Source: an uncultured Chitinophagales bacterium (lineage in GTDB: Bacteria > Bacteroidota > Rhodothermia > Balneolales > HLUCCA01). Taken from it: 64,000 nt of DNA. Below are positions 241 through 59,206 of the stretch, piece after piece. Position numbers and translations under genes: made by a program. How positions within the stretch are numbered: the stretch's first letter is position 1; each line of letters starts with the position of its first letter. A model generated the notes under the pieces. That model had not been told where the DNA came from, made no database searches, and saw only the letters and a program-made list of their open reading frames with translations. The DNA is taken from positions 43,977 to 107,976 of the forward strand of contig CAYYPL010000005.1 of NCBI GenBank assembly GCA_964473555.1, read 5' to 3'.

Positions 241-521
241 GAGCGGGCAAGCGGGCAAGCGGGTGAGCAGATTTTTGTGTACAAGGGTCAGATAGATCAC
301 AGAACAGAGTACAGAGTGCACAGTGCACAGAATACAGTACACAGAACACAGTGCACAGAACACCGAACAGAGTACACACAAAGAGTTGAACAGTTAGGTC
401 AGAGGGTAGATCAGGGGTCTCGGGTGTGTATAGTGTAATTTGGGTGTGGTAATAGGAAAGCCCTATGCGAGTTCACGGAGATTGATACCGCTAGTTTGCC
501 AGCCCGCTTGCCCGCTTATGG
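241..521. repeat. Modular simple-repeat element: GCGGGCAA arm, CACAG-heptad array, complementary CCCGCTTG arm
   Basis: 241..270 is GAGCGGGCAAGCGGGCAAGCGGGTGAGCAG. 297..380 is an array of about 12 CACAG-type heptads (ACAGAGT, GCACAGT, ACAGAAT and similar). 498..521 is GCCAGCCCGCTTGCCCGCTTATGG, the reverse-complement type of the first arm. The element lies in the divergent region between the aminotransferase start (222) and the capD-like start (849). Track ORFs 22..438(+) and 92..379(-) are read-through artefacts of it. Confidence 0.85.
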
Positions 522-7394: not shown

Positions 7395-7475
7395 TCGCTT
7401 GGGTTTCGGGATGTATTGTGTTCGTTGAGTATTCCTTCGCAAAAACAGACGTCCAGCTTTAAATGCCACCACGTT

Positions 7476-7634
7476 CCCTCATCCCTCATCCCTCATCCCT
7501 CATCCCTCATCGCTCATCCCTCATCGCTCATCGCTCATCGCTCATCCCTCATCGCTCCTCCCTCGTCAAAAATCTTAGCCCTGTGTACTGCAAACTGCAT
7601 CCTGCGAACTTGTGCTCTGCATACTGTGCTCTGT
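7476..7634. repeat. Modular simple-repeat element (C-rich orientation): 13 CCCTCAT/CGCTCAT heptads plus a CTGTG/CTGCG array
   Basis: 7476..7566 is 13 consecutive 7-nt units (CCCTCAT x4, then CGCTCAT/CCCTCAT mixed, ending CGCTCCT CCCTCGT). 7579..7634 is GCCCTGTGTACTGCAAACTGCATCCTGCGAACTTGTGCTCTGCATACTGTGCTCTG. The reverse complement gives the same module order (CACAG array, then GACGAGGGA + GGGATGA heptads) seen in the intragenic blocks at 15-16.7 kb. Track ORF 7416..7661 is an artefact of this element. Confidence 0.85.
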
Positions 7635-7830
7635 AATCATTGTACTGATTACTCCGAATGAAATGAGGATTCGTTGTGAAATCTGAGCACTTTCTGCAAG
7701 GATTATCATTTTCATCACTCATATATATGATCGAGGGTTTGTCGGGTGATGAAGTGTGCCACTGAGCGAACTTGTCCCCCTCCCACCTCCCTTGATCTTC
7801 ACATTCATTTAACGATCAAGAGGTTTAACC

Positions 7831-14532: not shown

Positions 14533-14590
14533 GCGTTTTCCGTTTTCCGTTCTCCGTTTTCCGTTCTCCGTTCTCAGTTCTCTGTTTTCC
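14533..14590. repeat. Heptanucleotide tandem array CCGTTTT/CCGTTCT (8 units)
   Basis: The sequence is GCGTTTT CCGTTTT CCGTTCT CCGTTTT CCGTTCT CCGTTCT CAGTTCT CTGTTTT. It starts 25 nt after the galE stop and ends 7 nt before the start of the GT-C gene. It is related to the CCGTTTTCTGT units at 17233..17289 on the other side of that gene. Confidence 0.85.
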
Positions 14591-14596
14591 ATATAT

Positions 14597-17005
14597 ATGA
14601 ACAAAGCATTTCCATATTTAGTAATCGGTTTTGTATGGTTGTTGATAGTAAATTTAATCGATCACACTGGTGAGTTTCCACTGATTGATGACTGGGCGTA
14701 TGCACATGGAGTGAAGGACTTTTTAGACGATGGGCTGCTGAAGATCTCCGATTGGGTAGCCATGACCCAGGTAGCTCACTTGTTCATGGGTGTAGCATGG
14801 GTGAAGGTGTTTGGATTCTCGCTGGAACATCTACGCGAGATGACCCTGTTGATCAGTTTTTTGGGATCCTTTGTATTCTACTGGCTAACCGGCTATTTCT
14901 CGACGCGTGTCACACACCGGCTTGTCGGGACCCTCATCATCACAGTGAATCCGATCTGGATGTATCTGAGTCATACGTTTATGACGGATGTGCCTTTTAC
15001 AACCTTATTCTTGGCTCTAATACTCATTTTAATCAAAATTGTATACCCTAAAAAAGAGTACTTAGCGCACAAAGCACAGGAAGTTCAGGAAGATCAGAGA
15101 GTACACAGCGCACAGGGCGCAGAACACAGTAAAGAGGTAGACGAGGGAAGAGGGATGAGGGATGAGAAAGAGCAGAGGCCAACGGGCGAGCGGGCAAGCG
15201 GGCAAGCAGAAGGGCTGTTTACTGGTTACCGTTTACCGTTTACAGATAACCGCTCACCGCTACTTCCCACTTCCTACTTCCTTCTACCATTGATTCTGGT
15301 ATTGAGCTCCATACTTGTTCTAATCCGCCAGACCGGACTGGGACTCGGATTTTCCTTCCTGCTGTGGGTCTTGTTGATGGACAGAGATCGGAGAGGCAGG
15401 TTTTGGGGTTTGGCGTTGGCGCTGGTGGGGGTTCAGGTGTCAACTTTGATTGGATACGAGTGGTTTATGGCCTCGATTGACGCCTTGTCGACCCGGTATC
15501 ACGGTGCCTCGAGTCTGAGCTGGATCCTGGGTCGGCCATGGTGGGTGGTCCGGGCTGCATATTACGTGCTGATCCAGTTGCAGTATCTGGGTATGTTCCT
15601 GCTTCCGTTATTACCGTTTGTGTGGATGAAGTGGAGGTCGGTGGGGGCAGGGAACTATTCCCGCTGGGCGTATATGGCGGCAGGTGTGGTGGTGTTGGGT
15701 ATGGGCGTTGCTGTGGGAGGGGATATACTGATGAATCCACGCTACACTCATTTGATGCAATACGATACCGTTGGACATGTCATGACGATCGACTTCACTT
15801 ATGAAAGGCTGGAGTTTAGTCGGAATTTGTATCCACTTTGGGTGGTTTTGCATGGGTTGGGACTGGTGAATGTGTTTATGATAGTGGTAGTGGGGAGTAG
15901 GAAGTGGGGAGTAGTAGCACGCAGTTCACCGTTCACAGTACACAGTGAAGGAATAGACGAGGGACGAGGGATGAGGGATGAGGGAGATAAGAGGCTAGCG
16001 GGCAAGCAGGCTAGTGGGCTAGCAGAAAGACAGAAAACAGTAAACAGTAAACGGATAACAGAAGGCCATTTTAGTGCAGAAGGGTCAGAAAGTACAGATC
16101 GTGCAGGGGGCAGAGATGGGGGATTCATGGGCCGTTTACCCTTTTCTGTTTACCGTTTACTGAAAACACAACGTGCGTTTGATCATCCCGTAACCTGGAT
16201 TATCCTTATTCTGGCTGGTTACACCGTTTTTATTTCCATCGGACAGTTCGTTTTTGACCGATATCTGATACTGCATTTACCTTTGTTCGTTCTACTGGTT
16301 TTGCATCTTGTACAAAGTTCACAAGTTCACTTCACGAAAACAGTAAACAGTAAACGGACAACGGAAGGTGAGCAAGCAGGCAAGCGGGAAAGCGGGATAA
16401 CGATAGTGTACAGTTCACTGGGCACAGATCGCAGTAGGGATGCTGACGAGGGACGAGGGACGAGGGATGAGCGGGTGAGGGGGCAAGCAGAGTTGGCGCA
16501 CAAAGATCAGGAAGATCAGGAAGATCAGGAAGTGCAGGAGACAGAAGAGAGTGCAGGGGCAAGGGATCAGAGTGCAGGGGCAAGGGAGCAGAGGTTAGAG
16601 AATGAAGTAGATGGGCCGTTTACCGTTTACCGTTTGCCGTTTACTCATTCTCTTATCCCTAATCCCTTATCCCTTATCTTTCTAACGCTATCACTCCTAT
16701 TCTCAATCACTGGCGTGCACGACAGCTTCAAATGGAATCGGGTTCGGTTCGGGGCTATCGAACAACTTGAGGCCCAAGGAATCAGTCCGCATCAAATAGA
16801 CGGTGGAGCGGAATACAATTCGTGGCAACGCACCGGTCCGATTCAACCCTTACGCCTGAATGAGAAAAGCTGGTGGTATGTAGATGGGGACGATTATGCT
16901 ATTGCACACGAAGAGATCCCTGGATACAAACGCATCGCAGCGTTTCCGTTTACAAGATATTATGGGCTGGAGAGTGACACACTTTACATCGTTCAAAGAA
17001 AGTAG
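14597..17005 (+). CDS. GT-C-fold polytopic membrane glycosyltransferase (ArnT/PMT_2-like) carrying three in-frame repeat-derived insertions
   Basis: An uninterrupted 802-aa ORF with many hydrophobic helices. An acidic DD motif sits in the first loop (FPLIDDWAYAHG), as in GT-C enzymes, and there is a soluble C-terminal domain (about aa 700-802). Three charged low-complexity loops are encoded by repeat blocks at 15065..15288, 15884..16160 and 16337..16678. The family call is by pattern only. Confidence 0.65.
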   Translation: MNKAFPYLVIGFVWLLIVNLIDHTGEFPLIDDWAYAHGVKDFLDDGLLKISDWVAMTQVAHLFMGVAWVKVFGFSLEHLREMTLLISFLGSFVFYWLTGYFSTRVTHRLVGTLIITVNPIWMYLSHTFMTDVPFTTLFLALILILIKIVYPKKEYLAHKAQEVQEDQRVHSAQGAEHSKEVDEGRGMRDEKEQRPTGERASGQAEGLFTGYRLPFTDNRSPLLPTSYFLLPLILVLSSILVLIRQTGLGLGFSFLLWVLLMDRDRRGRFWGLALALVGVQVSTLIGYEWFMASIDALSTRYHGASSLSWILGRPWWVVRAAYYVLIQLQYLGMFLLPLLPFVWMKWRSVGAGNYSRWAYMAAGVVVLGMGVAVGGDILMNPRYTHLMQYDTVGHVMTIDFTYERLEFSRNLYPLWVVLHGLGLVNVFMIVVVGSRKWGVVARSSPFTVHSEGIDEGRGMRDEGDKRLAGKQASGLAERQKTVNSKRITEGHFSAEGSESTDRAGGRDGGFMGRLPFSVYRLLKTQRAFDHPVTWIILILAGYTVFISIGQFVFDRYLILHLPLFVLLVLHLVQSSQVHFTKTVNSKRTTEGEQAGKRESGITIVYSSLGTDRSRDADEGRGTRDERVRGQAELAHKDQEDQEDQEVQETEESAGARDQSAGAREQRLENEVDGPFTVYRLPFTHSLIPNPLSLIFLTLSLLFSITGVHDSFKWNRVRFGAIEQLEAQGISPHQIDGGAEYNSWQRTGPIQPLRLNEKSWWYVDGDDYAIAHEEIPGYKRIAAFPFTRYYGLESDTLYIVQRK
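15065..15288. repeat. Intragenic repeat block 1 (CACAG / GACGAGGGA-GGGATGA / GCGGGCAA / CCGTTTA / CTACTTCC modules)
   Basis: 15065..15130 holds CACAG-type units. 15137..15166 is GTAGACGAGGGAAGAGGGATGAGGGATGAG. 15185..15209 is GGCGAGCGGGCAAGCGGGCAAGCAG. 15215..15243 is CTGTTTACTGGTTACCGTTTACCGTTTAC. 15260..15288 is CTACTTCCCACTTCCTACTTCCTTCTACC. The block translates in frame as ..AHKAQEVQEDQRVHSAQGAEHSKEVDEGRGMRDEKEQRPTGERASGQAEGLFTGYRLPFTDNRSPLLPTSYFLLP. Confidence 0.85.
15884..16160. repeat. Intragenic repeat block 2 (GGGAGT-GGAAGT / CACAG / GACGAGGGA-GGGATGA / GCGGGCAA / GTAAACA ... CCGTTTA modules)
   Basis: 15884..15917 is GTGGTAGTGGGGAGTAGGAAGTGGGGAGTAGTAG. 15917..15947 holds CACAG-type units. 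15953..15985 is ATAGACGAGGGACGAGGGATGAGGGATGAGGGA. 15992..16024 is GGCTAGCGGGCAAGCAGGCTAGTGGGCTAGCAG. 16034..16054 is AAAACAGTAAACAGTAAACGG. 16132..16160 is CCGTTTACCCTTTTCTGTTTACCGTTTAC. The block translates in frame as ..GSRKWGVVARSSPFTVHSEGIDEGRGMRDEGDKRLAGKQASGLAERQKTVNSKRITEG...GRLPFSVYRLL. Confidence 0.85.
16337..16678. repeat. Intragenic repeat block 3 (GTAAACA / GCAAGCGGG / CACAG / GACGAGGGA / 9-mer x3 / 21-mer x2 / CCGTTTA / CTTATCCC modules)
   Basis: 16337..16357 is AAAACAGTAAACAGTAAACGG. 16367..16396 is the GCAAGC/GCGGG arm. 16442..16490 is GCTGACGAGGGACGAGGGACGAGGGATGAGCGGGTGAGGGGGCAAGCAG. 16505..16533 is GATCAGGAA x3, encoding DQEDQEDQE. 16548..16589 is a 21-nt unit AGAGTGCAGGGGCAAGGGAKC x2. 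16616..16644 is CCGTTTACCGTTTACCGTTTGCCGTTTAC. 16644..16678 is CTCATTCTCTTATCCCTAATCCCTTATCCCTTATC. The frame stays open throughout. Confidence 0.85.
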
Positions 17006-17008
17006 TAA

Positions 17009-17289
17009 GTGCACAGTGCACAGTACGCAGAGCACAGTGCCACAGAACGCAGTGCACAGTGCACAGTACGCAGAACGCAGAGCACAGTGCACAGTACGCA
17101 GAGCACAGTGCACAGTACGCAGAGCACAGTGCCACAGAACGCAGTGCACAGAGCACAGTACGCAGTACGCAGAGCACAGTACGCAGTACGCAGAGCACAG
17201 TACGCAGTACGCAGAGCACAGAGCACAGACCACCGTTTTCTGTATACCGTTTTCTGTATACCGTTTTCCGTTTACCGTTTTCTGTTTAC
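17009..17289. repeat. Long CACAG-type heptad array (about 30 units) followed by CCGTTTTCTGT units
   Basis: 17009..17228 is tandem GCACAGT / ACGCAGA / GCACAGA / ACGCAGT units (consensus RCRCAGW), starting 4 nt after the stop of the GT-C gene. 17233..17289 is CCGTTTTCTGTATA x2, then CCGTTTTCCGTTTACCGTTTTCTGTTTAC. The stop codon of the convergent GT2 gene (17286..17288) lies in the last unit. Six track ORFs, one per frame, run through it. Confidence 0.9.
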
Positions 17290-18804: not shown

Positions 18805-20289
18805 ATGGTTGATTTGATGTACAAATATAAGCATTTACTGTTTACAATTATCTTGTTACGGTTTTTGGCAACTTGGTATGTGTTTCCCCATACCGATCGC
18901 CTTTATAACGGTGACTCACTGCTGTACGAACAGTATGCCATCTCAATGCTGGAAACAGGTGAGTACCTGTCGCCGGGCTATGGTAAATGGGAACATCTGT
19001 CCGATGAAAACGCCGGAACCATATCGTATGATCCGTTTGCCGATATGATTCGTCCGCCCGGCCTGCCCATGGTTTTGTGGATGGTGTACGGACTGGCAGG
19101 TCCAGACTGGGGACCTTGGGTGTTTTCGGTTTTGAATGGACTCTTAAGCGTACCTGTTTTGATCATTATCCTTGCTTTTTTTCGCCTTTTCGGGCTGGAA
19201 AAGTATGCACCGGTGTGCTGGCTTTTTGTTCTTGATCCTGGGTGGATCTTATATTCGAAGGAGATTCTGACCGAACCGATTTTTGTGCTGATACTGCTAT
19301 CTGCCTTGTACTTCGGAATTCTGGGTCTCACCCGTCTGTTCTCAGAGCATCTTCCAGGGGACTCATCGTTCACGAAACTGGAACACGTGCCTCCTGCACA
19401 CCTACTTGGTTACTCCGGATTGCTATTCGGCCTCGCGACCCTGTTTAAGCCCATCACATTGTATGTTGGCCTTGCCGGAGCCCTGCTTTTTATCCTATTG
19501 ATTGGTATTCATCGTGCAGACTTCCGGGTTTCAGGACGCTGGGACATCGCCCTGCTCAGATACGTAGTGTCGGTGATGCTGCTGTTCAGTGTTTCCGTTC
19601 AAACCGTTCATTTCAGCTGGCAAATGAGGAATTTTATGCGTCACGGGACATTCGCATTCACCTCCATCCAGGCCGAAAATCTGCTGACTGGTCATGCCGC
19701 TTTTGTCGTATCGTCTGCCGAAGGCATTACTCACCTCGAAGCCCAACAACGCATTCTTGATGACTTCAACCGGCAGCATCCAAATCATGGGGTGTACCCC
19801 TTCGAGCGGTTGTCGAAGGCAAAATCCGACATGGCACGTGCCTACATCAGGGAGCATCCGGGACATTATATTGCAGGTATTTTCAGGGGTATGGCCGTTA
19901 CTATGATGGATCCCGGCAGACTGGTCTTGAGCCGGACCCTGGGTCAACAAGAGATCTCGTCTATTGGATTAACGAATCAACTTGCCAGAGACGGTATCCT
20001 GGGTACGCTACAAACATTGTTCAGGGAGTATCCCGCATACTCCATCTTCATGACGCTACACCTGATGTGGCTGGGTTTCATTCTGATGCTCGCTGGTTGG
20101 GGATTTTGGTCCTTTTTACGCCGGTTCCCAGTCGCAGCCCTCACAATGGGACTACTCTTTTTGTATCTCTGGGGTCTCGGCGGACCATCCGGCTACGCCC
20201 GATTCAGGCTCTATTTGTTGCCTATGATGGTCATTTTTGCAGCATTTAGCCCGATTGTGGATCGCTTTACCAACCGTCGCGCCCAATAA
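18805..20289 (+). CDS. Polytopic membrane protein, probable second GT-C-type glycosyltransferase (PMT_2/ArnT-like)
   Basis: 494 aa with more than 10 hydrophobic helices. The first-loop acidic/aromatic segment is RLYNGDSLLYEQYA. It is divergent from the GT2/phosphotransferase pair. The family call is tentative. Confidence 0.55.
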   Translation: MVDLMYKYKHLLFTIILLRFLATWYVFPHTDRLYNGDSLLYEQYAISMLETGEYLSPGYGKWEHLSDENAGTISYDPFADMIRPPGLPMVLWMVYGLAGPDWGPWVFSVLNGLLSVPVLIIILAFFRLFGLEKYAPVCWLFVLDPGWILYSKEILTEPIFVLILLSALYFGILGLTRLFSEHLPGDSSFTKLEHVPPAHLLGYSGLLFGLATLFKPITLYVGLAGALLFILLIGIHRADFRVSGRWDIALLRYVVSVMLLFSVSVQTVHFSWQMRNFMRHGTFAFTSIQAENLLTGHAAFVVSSAEGITHLEAQQRILDDFNRQHPNHGVYPFERLSKAKSDMARAYIREHPGHYIAGIFRGMAVTMMDPGRLVLSRTLGQQEISSIGLTNQLARDGILGTLQTLFREYPAYSIFMTLHLMWLGFILMLAGWGFWSFLRRFPVAALTMGLLFLYLWGLGGPSGYARFRLYLLPMMVIFAAFSPIVDRFTNRRAQ

Positions 20290-49224: not shown

Positions 49225-49345
49225 AGTAAACAGAAACCGGTAAACAGTAAACAGCCCATCGGGGTGGTGAGTGAATGTACCGCTCGCTGCTTGCCGCTCA
49301 CAGCTTACTGCATGGTCGTTTACTGTTTACTGTTTACTGTTTACG
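49225..49345. repeat. Modular element: GTAAACA arm / core with CTTGCCGC fragment / CTGTTTA arm
   Basis: 49225..49255 is AAGTAAACAGAAACCGGTAAACAGTAAACAG. 49280..49300 is CCGCTCGCTGCTTGCCGCTCAC. 49316..49345 is GTCGTTTACTGTTTACTGTTTACTGTTTACG. The two outer arms are complementary heptad arrays about 60 nt apart. Confidence 0.85.
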
Positions 49346-49363
49346 CTCGCGGAGCGAGCTCAT

Positions 49364-49624
49364 ATGCAACCAGAAAAAATTAATGTCATAGCCTCTTTTG
49401 CCGGATTCACCACGCCCAAGCAGAAGAACCGAATCGTGCCGCACCGGTTTCTGACCCGGAAAGGGGATACGCATGTCATTGCCACGGTGCGACGCACCTA
49501 CACCGAGCGGGTGGGAGACAGTCAGCACGTGCATTTCGTGGTCCAGACCCGCGAGGGACGCCTCTTCGACATCGTCTACGACAGTAAACAGATCTGCTGG
49601 TTGATGGTTTTGGAGTTGGAATGA
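49364..49624 (+). CDS. Small hypothetical protein downstream of the Y-family polymerase
   Basis: 86 aa from ATG 49364: MQPEKINVIASFAGFTTPKQKNRIVPHRFLTRKGDTHVIATVRRTYTERVGDSQHVHFVVQTREGRLFDIVYDSKQICWLMVLELE. The track ORF 49271..49624 begins inside the repeat. It is beta-rich and bracketed by repeat elements. It vaguely recalls small proteins or domains found next to Y-family polymerases, but this is an unverified recollection. Confidence 0.4.
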   Translation: MQPEKINVIASFAGFTTPKQKNRIVPHRFLTRKGDTHVIATVRRTYTERVGDSQHVHFVVQTREGRLFDIVYDSKQICWLMVLELE

Positions 49625-49627
49625 ACC

Positions 49628-49758
49628 GTGAGCGGCGAGCAGGTAGCAAACAAGCGGGCTAGCAGGTGAGCCGTAAATACTTGTGCACGGAGGTCAGAAA
49701 GAACAGAAAGTGCAGATGTGTAGGGGGCAGGGTACCGCTTGCCTGCTTGCCCGCTTGC
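49628..49758. repeat. Modular element: GCGRGCAAG-type arm / CACAG-like core / CTTGCCCGC arm
   Basis: 49628..49671 is GTGAGCGGCGAGCAGGTAGCAAACAAGCGGGCTAGCAGGTGAGC. The core is GTGCACGGAGGTCAGAAAGAACAGAAAGTGCAGATGTG. 49735..49758 is CCGCTTGCCTGCTTGCCCGCTTGC, the complementary type. The element starts 4 nt after the small-ORF stop and lies upstream of tRNA-Leu. Confidence 0.85.
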
Positions 49759-49832: not shown

Positions 49833-49916
49833 GCCGAAGTGGTGGAATTGGTAGACGCGCACGTTTCAGGGGCGTGTGAGGGCAACCTCCTGTGGGTTCG
49901 AGTCCCACCTTCGGCA
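49833..49916 (+). tRNA. tRNA-Leu (CAG)
   Basis: The sequence is GCCGAAG TG GTGGAATTGGTAGACGCG CACGT TTCAGGG GCGTG TGAGGGCAACCTCCTGT GTGGG TTCGAGT CCCAC CTTCGGC A. It is an 84-nt class II tRNA with a long variable arm (GAGG-GCAA-CCTC) and anticodon CAG. Confidence 0.93.
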
Positions 49917-59013: not shown

Positions 59014-59034
59014 GAAGCGGGGAGCAGTATTTTA

Positions 59035-59206
59035 GGGAGTGGGAAGTAGGGAGTGGGAAGTAGGAAGTAGGGAGTGGGGAGTGGGGAGTCGGAATGATTT
59101 TCTACTTCACTGAATTTTACAGATATTAAGACAATGTGGTTGGTTATTTCTATCGTATGGGATTATTGTCATAAATCTACTACCCATTTCCTACTTCCAA
59201 CTACCC
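59035..59206. repeat. Modular element: GGGAGTG/GGAAGTA heptad arm (8 units) / AT-rich core / complementary CTACTTCC arm
   Basis: 59035..59093 is GGGAGTG GGAAGTA GGGAGTG GGAAGTA GGAAGTA GGGAGTG GGGAGTG GGGAGTC GG. 59177..59206 is CTACTACCCATTTCCTACTTCCAACTACCC. It contains TTCCTACTTCC, the exact complement of GGAAGTAGGAA in the left arm. The element starts 22 nt after the FolB-cupin stop and ends 42 nt before the peptidase ATG. Confidence 0.88.

What the first reader, a model, noticed from the sequence alone, without database searches (positions are those of the whole stretch)
15065..16678. Three in-frame, stop-free blocks of intergenic-type repeat modules inside a GT-C glycosyltransferase gene
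The 802-aa ORF 14597..17005 contains three blocks: 15065-15288, 15884-16160 and 16337-16678 (about 75, 92 and 114 codons). They are built from the same simple-repeat vocabulary that forms the intergenic elements elsewhere in this window. That vocabulary is CACAG heptads, GACGAGGGA+GGGATGA heptads, GCGGGCAA octads, GTAAACA/CCGTTTA heptads and GGAAGTA/CTACTTCC heptads. Each block begins right after a hydrophobic helix. Each translates to a charged low-complexity loop: ..VDEGRGMRDEKEQRPTGERASGQAEG.., ..IDEGRGMRDEGDKRLAGKQASGLAERQKTVNSKRITEG.., ..ADEGRGTRDERVRGQAELAHKDQEDQEDQEVQE... The same module is read in the same frame in all three blocks (DEGRGMRDE / DEGRGMRDE / DEGRGTRDE; YRLPFT / YRLL / YRLPFT). 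Some module edges encode parts of the adjacent helices (LLPTSYFLLP, SLIPNPLSLIF). The GGGATGA and GTAAACA units carry TGA/TAA in the other two frames, so an open frame through all three blocks is not trivial. Removing the blocks leaves about 520 aa, a normal size for an ArnT/PMT-type enzyme. The closest precedent I know is the in-frame insertion of Rickettsia palindromic elements into protein genes. I know of nothing equivalent for heptad-repeat elements or for this lineage.
Basis: partly seen in the sequence, partly recalled or inferred. Interest (0 to 1): 0.88.

Follow-up and report, generated by a model that had tools for sequence, protein, structure and literature searches.

The report
Repeat-built loops inside a membrane glycosyltransferase
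A bacterial membrane sugar-transferase gene carries three long, translated loops built from the same 7- and 8-base repeat elements that fill the spaces between genes in this lineage, showing how repeat DNA can be written into a working protein.

Summary
ORF 14597-17005 (802 aa) is a GT-C (PMT_2/ArnT-like) glycosyltransferase. Its insert-free orthologues are 537-575 aa. Three blocks (about 15047-15288, 15884-16171, 16311-16680) are insertions relative to those orthologues and to distant PF13231 homologues. All three fall in short loops that I infer to be cytoplasmic. The blocks use the heptad/octad modules found in seven intergenic regions of the window, including the same ordered composites with conserved non-repeat leaders. 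Only the gene's frame is open: it has 0 stops, while the other five frames have 1-9 stops per block. In-gene unit runs never exceed 4 copies, against 11-13 copies between genes. Five syntenic relatives carry blocks at the same sites with reshuffled modules. One relative has the same ~115-nt composite at two sites, 419 codons apart. Shared block segments are 86-96% identical between genomes whose synonymous sites are saturated (43-60% identity). Which relative shares each segment differs from segment to segment. Best reading: these are translated, tolerated insertions from a copy-and-paste repeat family, filtered by selection for an open frame. They resemble Rickettsia palindromic elements and Borg tandem repeats but differ in architecture. 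It is a new variant of a known kind. What conserves the shared segments is unresolved.

The parts
14597..17005 (+). Host gene: a 13-TM GT-C (PMT_2/ArnT-like) glycosyltransferase of 802 aa with the catalytic FPLIDDW loop after TM1.
   Evidence: ORF. hhalign against PF13231-bearing homologues gives E 8e-78 over 529 columns. The AF2 model of orthologue P0013 hits ArnT 5f15 at E 7e-6, and the top 29 hits are all GT-C enzymes. D31 and D32 are invariant.
15047..15288 (+). Block 1 (site 1, inferred cytoplasmic loop between TM4 and TM5). Module order: CAGGAAGNT, CACAG heptads, GACGAGG/GGGATGA, GCGGGCAA octads, GTTTACC heptads, CTACTTC heptads.
   Evidence: It is a gap in insert-free orthologues, repeats are detected by TRF, and pLDDT is below 50 at aa 185-224.
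15884..16171 (+). Block 2 (site 2, inferred cytoplasmic loop between TM10 and TM11). Module order: GGGAGTA/GGAAGTG, CACAG, GACGAGG/GGGATGA, GGCTAGCGGGCAAGC, CAGAAAA/GTAAACA, an 80-nt loop, CCGTTTA.
   Evidence: pLDDT is below 50 at aa 435-525. It is absent from L002 and shortened in L129.
16311..16680 (+). Block 3 (site 3, inferred cytoplasmic loop between TM12 and TM13). Module order: GTAAACA, GCAAGCGGG, CACAG, GACGAGG, a 9-nt array of 3.3 copies, a 21-nt array of 2.2 copies, CCGTTTA, CTTATCC.
   Evidence: pLDDT is below 50 at aa 594-686. The RNA fold z-score is -2.6.
15097..15166 (+). Copy 1 of the 70-nt composite (CACAG array, spacer, GACGAGGGA, GGGATGAG).
   Evidence: Repeat family D4 and alignment A3.
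15913..15982 (+). Copy 2 of the 70-nt composite, 816 nt (272 codons) after copy 1. It extends to 147 nt at 72% identity with block 1.
16402..16471 (+). Copy 3 of the 70-nt composite, 489 nt (163 codons) after copy 2.
15204..15243 (+). GTTTAC-array composite with the conserved leader GAAGGGCTGTTTAC. Further copies lie at 16121-16160 and 16605-16644.
   Evidence: Repeat family D6. The leader also occurs in intergenic copies and in relatives.
16045..16162 (+). Inverted arms inside block 2: 16045-16063 and 16144-16162, 89% complementary.
   Evidence: Inverted repeat I3.
16349..16645 (+). Inverted arms inside block 3: 16349-16364 and 16630-16645, 88% complementary.
   Evidence: Inverted repeat I6 and the fold.
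15260..15282 (+). CTACTTC heptad array that encodes the start of the next TM helix (..LLPTSYFLLP..).
16652..16678 (+). CTTATCC heptad array that encodes the start of the last TM helix (SLIPNPLSLIF). Relatives L131, L129 and L002 use a GCTTGCC array at this position instead.
16503..16593 (+). Frame-preserving sub-arrays: a 9-nt unit in 3.3 copies and a 21-nt unit (three heptads) in 2.2 copies.
   Evidence: L001 has the 21-nt unit in 7.2 copies.
14534..14590 (.). Intergenic CCGTTYT heptad array that ends 6 nt before the start codon.
17008..17289 (.). Intergenic arrays filling the gap between the convergent genes: CACAG-type heptads in about 31 copies, then CCGTTTT.
7475..7640 (-). Intergenic copy of the same ordered composite: a CACAG array, GACGAGGGA, then a 13-unit run of (G/C)GATGAG.
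242..517 (.). Intergenic element with GCGGGCAA octads, CACAG heptads, and the reverse-complement octads GCCCGCTT.
49225..49758 (.). Two intergenic array hairpins (GTAAACA...GTTTACT and GCGGGC-type...GCCCGC-type) bracketing an 86-aa ORF.
59033..59089 (.). Intergenic GGGAGTG/GGAAGTA heptad array.

Best explanation
The three blocks are real, translated insertions in three short loops of a 13-TM GT-C glycosyltransferase. I infer these loops to be cytoplasmic, on the face opposite the periplasmic active site. The inserted DNA belongs to a clade-wide family of composite repeat elements. Each element is a string of short heptad or octad arrays, and each array has a conserved non-repeat leader. Purine-rich arms are followed by their pyrimidine-rich complements. 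Elsewhere the same elements fill intergenic regions. Shown: composites of 70-150 nt have been copied between the loops, between loops and intergenic sites, and are shared among diverged lineages. Inferred: they move by recombination or gene conversion that uses the arrays as homology, and they grow and shrink by slippage. Selection on the host gene acts as a filter. Stop-bearing units such as GGGATGA and GTAAACA stay at two copies or fewer. Net lengths stay at multiples of three, and in-frame growth occurs in 9- or 21-nt steps. Purine-rich arms translate to charged, disordered linkers. Pyrimidine-rich arms translate to hydrophobic strings (YRLPFT, LLPTSYFLLP, SLIPNPLSLIF) that abut or form the start of the next helix. 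Because the elements are palindromic, either orientation gives this hydrophilic-then-hydrophobic product. I think the loops most likely have no catalytic role and persist because these positions tolerate them.
For: Evidence that these are insertions: orthologues of 537-575 aa have gaps at all three sites, and PF13231 homologues also lack the blocks. Evidence for one element family with the intergenic arrays: 11-mer sharing is about tenfold above background. The ordered composite CACAG, then GACGAGGGA, then GGGATGA occurs in the three blocks and in intergenic copies in the window, L001 and L002. The leader GAWGGGCNGTTTAC precedes GTTTAC arrays both in genes and between genes. Evidence for copying: in L131 a ~115-nt composite sits at site 1 and at site 3, 1257 nt (419 codons) apart, and the same composite is at site 1 in the window, L002 and L126. 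Evidence for translation and the frame filter: the gene frame has 0 stops against 1-9 in each other frame. Across six genomes, none of 102 in-gene unit runs closes all three frames and the longest is 4 copies, against 11-13 copies outside genes. In-gene sub-arrays have 9- and 21-nt periods. Evidence that they are not artefacts: blocks lie at the same sites in six independent assemblies. Evidence on location: hydropathy plus K/R counts give alternating loops with all three sites on the K/R-rich side and all conserved loops on the other side. The confident P0013 model places sites 1-3 at short turns (residues 155-159, 373-378, 424-428) in a 13-TM ArnT-like fold. Evidence for disorder: pLDDT is below 50 across the blocks. 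Evidence for generality: the same heptads lie in frame in DnaE, MiaA, a tricorn protease and a Memo protein in unrelated metagenome contigs.
Against: No transposase, terminal inverted repeat or target-site duplication was identified, so the copying mechanism is inferred and not shown. Some block segments are far better conserved between genomes than synonymous sites: identity is 0.86-0.96, with third positions at 22/25 to 32/33, against 0.43-0.60 in the core and flanking genes. That argues against purely neutral filler and is not explained by this model unless segments are exchanged between lineages. Only one of about 43 genes in the window carries blocks, and it carries three, which the model explains only by tolerance of these loops. 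Expression and topology are untested. Cytoplasmic placement rests on the positive-inside rule and on analogy with ArnT.
Confidence: 0.6

Rival explanations
1. The blocks are functional disordered domains. On this view the loops have been recruited as regulatory or interaction regions on the cytoplasmic face, for example to dock partner enzymes of the polysaccharide pathway, and they are kept by selection.
For: Shared segments are conserved well beyond synonymous expectation. Peptides such as ARSSPFTVHSEGIDEGRGxRDE and GLFTGYRLPFTDNRSP recur in several genomes. Blocks persist at all three sites in at least four diverged lineages, while the intergenic arrays flanking the gene are not conserved at all. 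Other lineages without heptad arrays also have inserts at these sites (L003, L127).
Against: L002 lacks blocks 2 and 3 and L004 lacks all three, yet both keep the enzyme core. Block interiors cannot be aligned between relatives. In the conserved segments all three codon positions are equally conserved, which is not the signature of selection on the protein. Composition follows the DNA repeat units.
Confidence: 0.18
2. The blocks grew in place by slippage alone. Each block would have arisen at its site by replication slippage of local seeds, and the shared vocabulary would reflect a genome-wide mutational bias rather than any copying between sites.
For: Heptanucleotide arrays are a widespread mutational product in bacteria. 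Copy numbers differ between relatives. L002 keeps short stubs at sites 2 and 3 that could be seeds.
Against: Composites of 70-147 nt with the same irregular order of variant units and the same non-repeat junctions recur at different sites and in intergenic DNA. In L131 a ~115-nt composite is present at both site 1 and site 3. Independent slippage would not reproduce these junctions.
Confidence: 0.07
3. The blocks are a phase-variation switch. Units of 7 or 8 nt inside the ORF would let slippage shift the frame and turn this surface-glycan transferase on and off.
For: The gene sits in a polysaccharide locus with an epimerase, a GT2 enzyme and an initiating Bac_transf enzyme. Units are not multiples of three. 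L002 has an assembly gap inside a long CTACTAC array, and a short-read assembly breaks at the upstream array.
Against: In-gene runs are only 2-4 copies and are imperfect, far shorter than typical contingency tracts. The same arrays fill ordinary intergenic DNA. All six assemblies are in the ON frame.
Confidence: 0.07
4. The blocks are true non-autonomous transposons, like MITEs or RPEs, moved by a transposase encoded elsewhere and inserted independently in each lineage.
For: Arms are palindromic. Identity is high between lineages whose synonymous sites are saturated, and the relative sharing each segment changes along the gene, as expected for horizontally moving elements. Copies occur both between genes and inside genes.
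Against: There is no fixed element length or consensus ends, and no target-site duplication could be defined. Blocks occupy the same three sites in all lineages, which fits inheritance plus segment replacement better than repeated independent insertion. No transposase is seen near any copy in the 64-kb window.
Confidence: 0.08

Closest known systems
Rickettsia palindromic elements (RPE) inserted in frame in protein genes (Ogata et al. 2000, from my own knowledge; reviewed in PMC10969869 and PMC2229807, seen)
   Same: Both are palindromic repeat DNA found between genes and inside genes. Both are inserted without breaking the reading frame, are translated as extra peptide segments away from the catalytic site, and have coding potential that does not depend on orientation.
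   Different: RPEs are discrete elements of 100-150 bp with a family consensus. Here the inserts are variable mosaics of 7- and 8-nt arrays, 200-370 nt long, which reshuffle between close relatives. The host lineage is Chitinophagales-like Bacteroidota rather than Rickettsia.
Tandem repeats in Borg elements that create disordered regions in proteins (PMC9879509)
   Same: In both cases repeats occur between genes and inside genes, evolve fast, keep ORFs open, yield disordered segments, and favour membrane or extracellular proteins.
   Different: Borg in-ORF units are perfect and always divisible by three. Here the units are 7 or 8 nt, imperfect, present in 2-4 copies, and strung together as different modules. 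Frame is kept by limiting copies and by compensation across modules.
Long simple sequence repeats of heptanucleotides in bacterial intergenic DNA. Examples are cyanobacterial STRR, TAACTGA repeats (PMC4679880) and G-rich GGGNATC quadruplex-forming repeats (PMC4692102).
   Same: The unit length is 7 nt, the arrays are abundant between genes, inverted tandem arrangements occur, and the units carry a GGG tract (GGGATGA, GGGACGA).
   Different: Those repeats are reported as under-represented in coding regions and as single-unit arrays. Here several different unit types form ordered composites with conserved leaders, and the composites are translated.
In-frame MITEs in other bacteria, such as the Coxiella MITEs (PMC5896051) and the enterobacterial small mobile sequences reviewed by Delihas (PMC2229807), both seen
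   Same: They are small non-autonomous repeats that can sit inside genes and add peptide segments.
   Different: MITEs have terminal inverted repeats and target-site duplications. Neither could be defined here.

Membership tests
GT-C glycosyltransferase, PMT_2 / ArnT-like (Pfam PF13231) | The protein itself matches the PF13231 model above the gathering score. | tested here: not met
   The window protein has no Pfam or NCBIfam hit. Only 2 of 19 orthologues reach E 0.004.
GT-C glycosyltransferase, PMT_2 / ArnT-like (Pfam PF13231) | The protein is homologous over its full length to proteins that do match PF13231. | tested here: met
   hhalign of A1 against A2 gives probability 100% and E 8e-78 over 529 columns. 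All 22 A2 members hit PMT_2, with a best E of 4e-13.
GT-C glycosyltransferase, PMT_2 / ArnT-like (Pfam PF13231) | The protein has the GT-C membrane fold. | tested here: met
   The AF2 model of the insert-free orthologue P0013 has pLDDT 89.9 and pTM 0.92. Foldseek hits ArnT 5f15 at E 7e-6, and the top 29 PDB hits are all GT-C enzymes with TM-scores of 0.32-0.52.
GT-C glycosyltransferase, PMT_2 / ArnT-like (Pfam PF13231) | There is an acidic catalytic motif in the first periplasmic loop after TM1. | tested here: met
   FPLIDDWAYAHG has D31 and D32 invariant in 19 orthologues, and the DD pair is invariant in the distant homologues. Catalysis itself was not tested.
RPE-type in-frame palindromic element | The insertion keeps the host ORF open and is absent from orthologues. 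| tested here: met
RPE-type in-frame palindromic element | The element is discrete, with a fixed length and a family consensus. | tested here: not met
   Blocks are 240-370 nt mosaics whose interiors differ between relatives. Only sub-composites of 70-150 nt recur.
RPE-type in-frame palindromic element | The sequence is palindromic and able to form a hairpin. | tested here: inconclusive
   Inverted arms exist in blocks 2 and 3. The RNA fold z-score is -2.6 for block 3 but only -1.2 and -1.3 for blocks 2 and 1.
MITE | The element has terminal inverted repeats and a target-site duplication. | tested here: inconclusive
   No flanking direct repeats were apparent in the alignments. Exact insert boundaries cannot be set, because insert-free orthologues are too diverged at the DNA level.
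Heptanucleotide long simple sequence repeats | There are head-to-tail arrays of a 5-11 nt unit, mainly between genes. | tested here: met
   Intergenic arrays have 8-31 copies. In-gene runs are limited to 2-4 copies.
Borg-type amino-acid tandem repeats | The in-ORF unit length is divisible by three and the repeats are perfect. | tested here: not met
   Most units are 7 or 8 nt and imperfect. Only two sub-arrays (9 nt in 3.3 copies, 21 nt in 2.2 copies) fit.
Phase-variable contingency locus | There is a long homogeneous tract in the ORF whose copy number varies within populations. | not testable with these tools
   No reads are available. Tracts are short. The only hints are an N gap in the CTACTAC array of L002 and a contig break at the upstream array in L128.

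The most novel reading that the evidence does not exclude
The heptad/octad composites would be a distinct class of self-propagating repeat DNA. On this reading they colonise coding sequence in frame and swap modules between loops, loci and even diverged lineages, which would explain segments that are 86-96% identical where synonymous sites are saturated. They would routinely build disordered protein loops and even the ends of transmembrane helices. Related heptad stubs in DnaE, MiaA and other housekeeping genes across phyla would be the same process.
Probability: 0.3. Interest if true: 0.8.

Novelty: new variant of a known kind. Interest (0 to 1): 0.62.

Why it matters
In-frame colonisation of genes by repeat DNA is a textbook curiosity known mainly from Rickettsia. 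More recently, Borg tandem repeats have been proposed as a source of new disordered regions. This case shows a third route, through short arrays of 7- and 8-nt units, which ought to break reading frames. These arrays are strung into composites that stay open only in one register. They sit in three loops of a conserved membrane enzyme in free-living Bacteroidota. The locus gives a natural series of at least six genomes with different module sets at fixed sites. That series allows study of how selection filters repeat DNA into protein, how tolerant GT-C cytoplasmic loops are, and whether repeat modules are exchanged between species. It is also a practical warning: short-read assemblies break or gap at these arrays, and domain searches fail on the full-length protein.

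Tried and rejected
- A protein search with the three block peptides concatenated returned nothing at E up to 1, not even the source protein, probably because of composition filtering. It therefore gave no census of proteins carrying these peptides.
- Rfam found only two tRNAs in the window and nothing at the arrays.
- The terminator and promoter scan found nothing inside the blocks.
- Whole-protein Pfam, NCBIfam and PDB sequence searches were empty.
- The first AF2 model, of the full 802-aa protein, was poor (pLDDT 57), and its fold hits were weak. It was replaced by a model of an insert-free orthologue.
- The exact look-up of the window protein found no contig. The only independent assembly of the same organism stops at the array upstream of the gene, so the blocks of this exact genome could not be re-verified.
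- The genome-collection scan gave only four loci and not the source genome, so the organism is known only as Chitinophagales-like.
- Homogenisation to a within-genome consensus was rejected as the cause of the conserved segments. Paralogous copies in the window are 72-81% alike, while positional copies in other genomes are 86-96% alike.
- An intron, intein or excised intervening sequence was rejected, because the frame is kept open and no such signatures are present.
- A viral-contig scan for (CCGTTTA)3 gave 3 hits that I did not follow.
- Literature searches found no description of translated heptad mosaics. The library is incomplete, so this is not proof of absence.

Full report
**Observation.** The window has an open 802-codon ORF at 14597-17005 on the + strand. 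Tandem Repeats Finder places short arrays with periods of 7, 8, 9 and 21 nt inside it, in three clusters: 15077-15282, 15922-16162 and 16315-16678. It finds longer arrays of the same unit types at 242-517, 7475-7564, 14534-14590, 17008-17289, 49225-49758 and 59033-59089. A simple gene map shows that all of those outside sites are intergenic. Each block shares 118-161 11-mers with the rest of the window, almost all of them in those intergenic arrays or in the other two blocks. Random 281-bp windows have a median of 13. The gene frame has no stop in any block, whereas each of the other five frames has 1-9 stops per block. With roughly 14 stops expected, an open frame by chance has a probability of about 1e-6 (my Poisson estimate).

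**The host protein.**
- The full protein has no Pfam or NCBIfam hit, because the inserts break it up.
- A database search found 18 orthologues of 518-826 aa and about 30 distant homologues carrying PF13231 (PMT_2).
- A profile of the orthologues aligns to a profile of the PF13231 proteins over 529 columns with E 8e-78.
- All 22 of those distant proteins match PMT_2.
- An AlphaFold model of the insert-free orthologue P0013 is confident (pLDDT 89.9, pTM 0.92). Its best PDB matches are ArnT (5f15, E 7e-6), AglB, STT3, AftB, Pmt4, ALG9/12, DPY19, PglB and Emb. These are GT-C enzymes only, through rank 29.
- The motif FPLIDDW after the first helix is invariant.
- The neighbours are an epimerase, a GT2 enzyme and a Bac_transf initiating transferase, so this is a surface-polysaccharide locus.

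**The blocks are insertions.**
- In the alignment of 19 orthologues, the three blocks are gaps in the 537-575-aa proteins.
- They are also insertions relative to the distant PF13231 profile.
- Measured between fixed anchors, the three sites hold 19, 20 and 26 residues in L004, against 87, 105 and 131 in the window.
- In the model of the full protein, the blocks are the low-confidence, coil regions at residues 185-224, 435-525 and 594-686.
- In the confident P0013 model, the three sites are tight turns at residues 155-159, 373-378 and 424-428.
- Hydropathy and K/R counts give a regular alternation. The three sites and the other K/R-rich loops fall on one side. The conserved loops (DDW, RQTG, STRYHGAS, NPRYTHLMQYD, FDRY) and the C-terminal domain fall on the other.
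- Taking the 13-TM topology of ArnT, with the N terminus in and the C-terminal domain out (established knowledge), all three blocks are in cytoplasmic loops, away from the periplasmic active site. This placement is an inference and has not been tested.

**The blocks belong to the same family as the intergenic elements.**
- The resemblance goes beyond shared units. A 70-nt composite of four or five CACAG-type heptads, a short spacer, GACGAGGGA and GGGATGAG occurs once in each block with 76-77% identity. Between blocks 1 and 2 it extends to 147 nt.
- The same order is found on the minus strand of the intergenic element at 7475-7640, and in intergenic elements of two relatives.
- GTTTAC arrays are almost always preceded by the leader GAWGGGCNGTTTAC, both in genes and between genes.
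- Intergenic elements are typically an array followed, after a loop, by its reverse complement. Blocks 2 and 3 have such arms. Only block 3 folds significantly better than shuffles, with z -2.6.
- Purine-rich arms translate to charged residues and pyrimidine-rich arms to hydrophobic ones. In every block the pyrimidine arm lies next to the following helix. The first residues of two helices are encoded by CTACTTC and CTTATCC arrays.

**Relatives.** Five syntenic loci from independent assemblies carry the gene.
- L001 is a JGI metagenome contig.
- L002 is a Chitinophagales MAG.
- L126 and L129 are JGI contigs.
- L131 is a Logan assembly.

All five have repeat blocks at site 1, and most have them at sites 2 and 3, so the blocks are not an assembly artefact of one genome. 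The module content differs.
- L002 has only short stubs at sites 2 and 3.
- L129 lacks the CACAG and GACGAGG part of block 2.
- L001 has a 21-nt unit (three heptads) in 7.2 copies.
- The start of the last helix is encoded by a CTTATCC array in the window and L001, but by a GCTTGCC array in L131, L129 and L002.
- In L131, a ~115-nt composite found at site 1 in four genomes is also present at site 3. The two copies lie 1257 nt (419 codons) apart, in the same frame. This is direct evidence that composites are copied between loops.
- Related lineages without heptad arrays either have no inserts (L004) or have non-repeat inserts at the same sites (L003, L127). The sites are therefore generally permissive.

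**Selection filter.** Three consecutive copies of a heptad are read in all three registers, so a unit containing a stop triplet cannot exceed two perfect copies in an ORF. That limit is what is seen. GGGATGA and GTAAACA occur at most twice in a row in the gene, but 13 and 4 times between genes. Across six genomes, none of 102 in-gene runs closes all three frames and none exceeds four copies, while runs outside genes reach 11-13 copies. The shared reading frame of DEGRGMRDE in the three blocks is thus forced and not a coincidence. In-gene expansion appears as 9-nt and 21-nt periods.

**An unexplained result.** Third-codon-position identity between the window and its relatives is 0.54-0.60 in the core of this gene and 0.43-0.59 in the two flanking genes. 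Synonymous sites are therefore near saturation. Yet several block segments are much more alike.
- The 5' part of block 1 is 0.96 identical to L002, with third positions at 32/33.
- The 3' part of block 1 is 0.93 identical to L131.
- The 5' part of block 2 is 0.92 identical to L001 and 0.88 to L131.
- The 5' part of block 3 is 0.96 identical to L131, with third positions at 17/17.
- The 3' part of block 3 is 0.86 identical to L001.

The six strongest comparisons have Fisher p from 1e-7 to 1e-3, and they survive correction for the 35 segment-by-genome comparisons. All three codon positions are equally conserved. The closest relative differs from segment to segment, and other parts of the blocks cannot be aligned. 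Copies at different sites within the window are only 72-81% alike, so this is not homogenisation to a within-genome consensus. Identity inside a pure array could arise by parallel expansion of the same unit. However, the conserved stretches include irregular unit orders and non-repeat junctions. Two explanations remain: block segments are exchanged between lineages, or they are constrained at the nucleotide level. I cannot separate these with the data at hand.

**Wider context.** Their GC content ranges from 39 to 73%. Most hits are intergenic arrays, and they are often paired with the reverse-complement array. Outside this clade only the array itself is shared, not the composites. In several contigs the array lies in frame in genes confirmed by Pfam.
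- MiaA, where the insertion splits the IPPT domain into two stretches.
- DnaE, inside the HHH_6 domain.
- A tricorn protease.
- A Memo-like protein.

Heptanucleotide arrays as a feature of bacterial intergenic DNA are described in PMC4679880 and PMC4692102, where they are reported as under-represented in coding regions. In-frame repeat elements are known from Rickettsia and from some MITEs. Tandem repeats that create disordered regions are described for Borg elements, where in-ORF units are always divisible by three (PMC9879509). I found no description of translated mosaics of 7- and 8-nt arrays, though the library is incomplete.

**Verdict.** The most likely account is that composite repeat elements of a clade-wide family have been copied into three permissive cytoplasmic loops of a GT-C enzyme. 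There they are translated and continually reshuffled, and selection on the host gene allows only stop-free, frame-preserving configurations. Shown: the insertions, the shared family, copying between sites, the frame filter, and recurrence across assemblies. Inferred: the cytoplasmic location, the recombinational mechanism, and the absence of function. The excess conservation and the changing closest relative of shared segments keep open a more interesting reading, in which these composites are mobile between lineages or are constrained as DNA or RNA. It is a new variant of a known kind, of moderate to high interest.

Noticed in passing
L006-L125 (metagenome contigs): GGGAYGA heptad arrays occur in at least 120 contigs with GC of 39-73%, which implies many phyla. 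They usually lie between genes and often sit as an array plus its reverse complement (for example L015, L040, L064, L087, L094, L095, L111, L120). Why the same unit recurs so widely is unexplained; GGG-tract quadruplex potential is one lead.
   Followed up: partly
L036:174-1250(-), L125:554-4141(+), L029:228-3761(+), L089:1-795(-): The same heptads lie in frame inside Pfam-confirmed housekeeping genes of unrelated organisms: MiaA, DnaE, a tricorn protease and a Memo-like protein. They add 10-50 residues.
   Followed up: partly
L029 about 2080-2110 and L036 about 560-590: Both contigs carry the palindrome TTTAGCCCCCCAATTTATTGGGG directly after the heptads. It is translated in different frames in the two genes (FVFSPPIYWG and LYLAPQFIGG). 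This looks like another in-frame palindromic element.
   Followed up: no
L131:6140-6260 and L131:7397-7515: One ~115-nt composite is present at two different loops of the same gene, 419 codons apart. The window has it only at site 1.
   Followed up: yes
window 49364-49624: An 86-aa ORF with no Pfam hit is bracketed by two array hairpins (49225-49344 and 49630-49758). It lies just upstream of a tRNA at 49833-49916.
   Followed up: partly
L128 (end of contig) and L002:4649-4748: A short-read assembly encoding an identical GalE protein ends 60 nt after galE, at the heptad array. The L002 MAG has a run of N inside the CTACTAC array of block 1. These arrays break or gap assemblies, and the copy numbers there are uncertain.
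   Followed up: partly
L129:7793-8149: A gene for a 23S rRNA intervening-sequence protein (PF05635) is inserted between the GT-C gene and the GT2 gene in this relative only.
   Followed up: no
window 17006-17285: The whole 280-nt gap between the convergent GT-C and GT2 genes consists of arrays: about 31 CACAG-type heptads, then CCGTTTT. In L001 and L002 the corresponding gaps hold quite different arrays, so the intergenic arrays turn over completely while parts of the in-gene blocks are conserved.
   Followed up: partly
window 18805-20289: A 494-aa membrane protein with no Pfam hit is conserved next to the locus in all syntenic relatives. It may be a further enzyme or polymerase of the glycan pathway.
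   Followed up: no
L132-L134 (IMG/VR contigs): Three viral-collection contigs contain (CCGTTTA)3. Their context was not examined.
   Followed up: no
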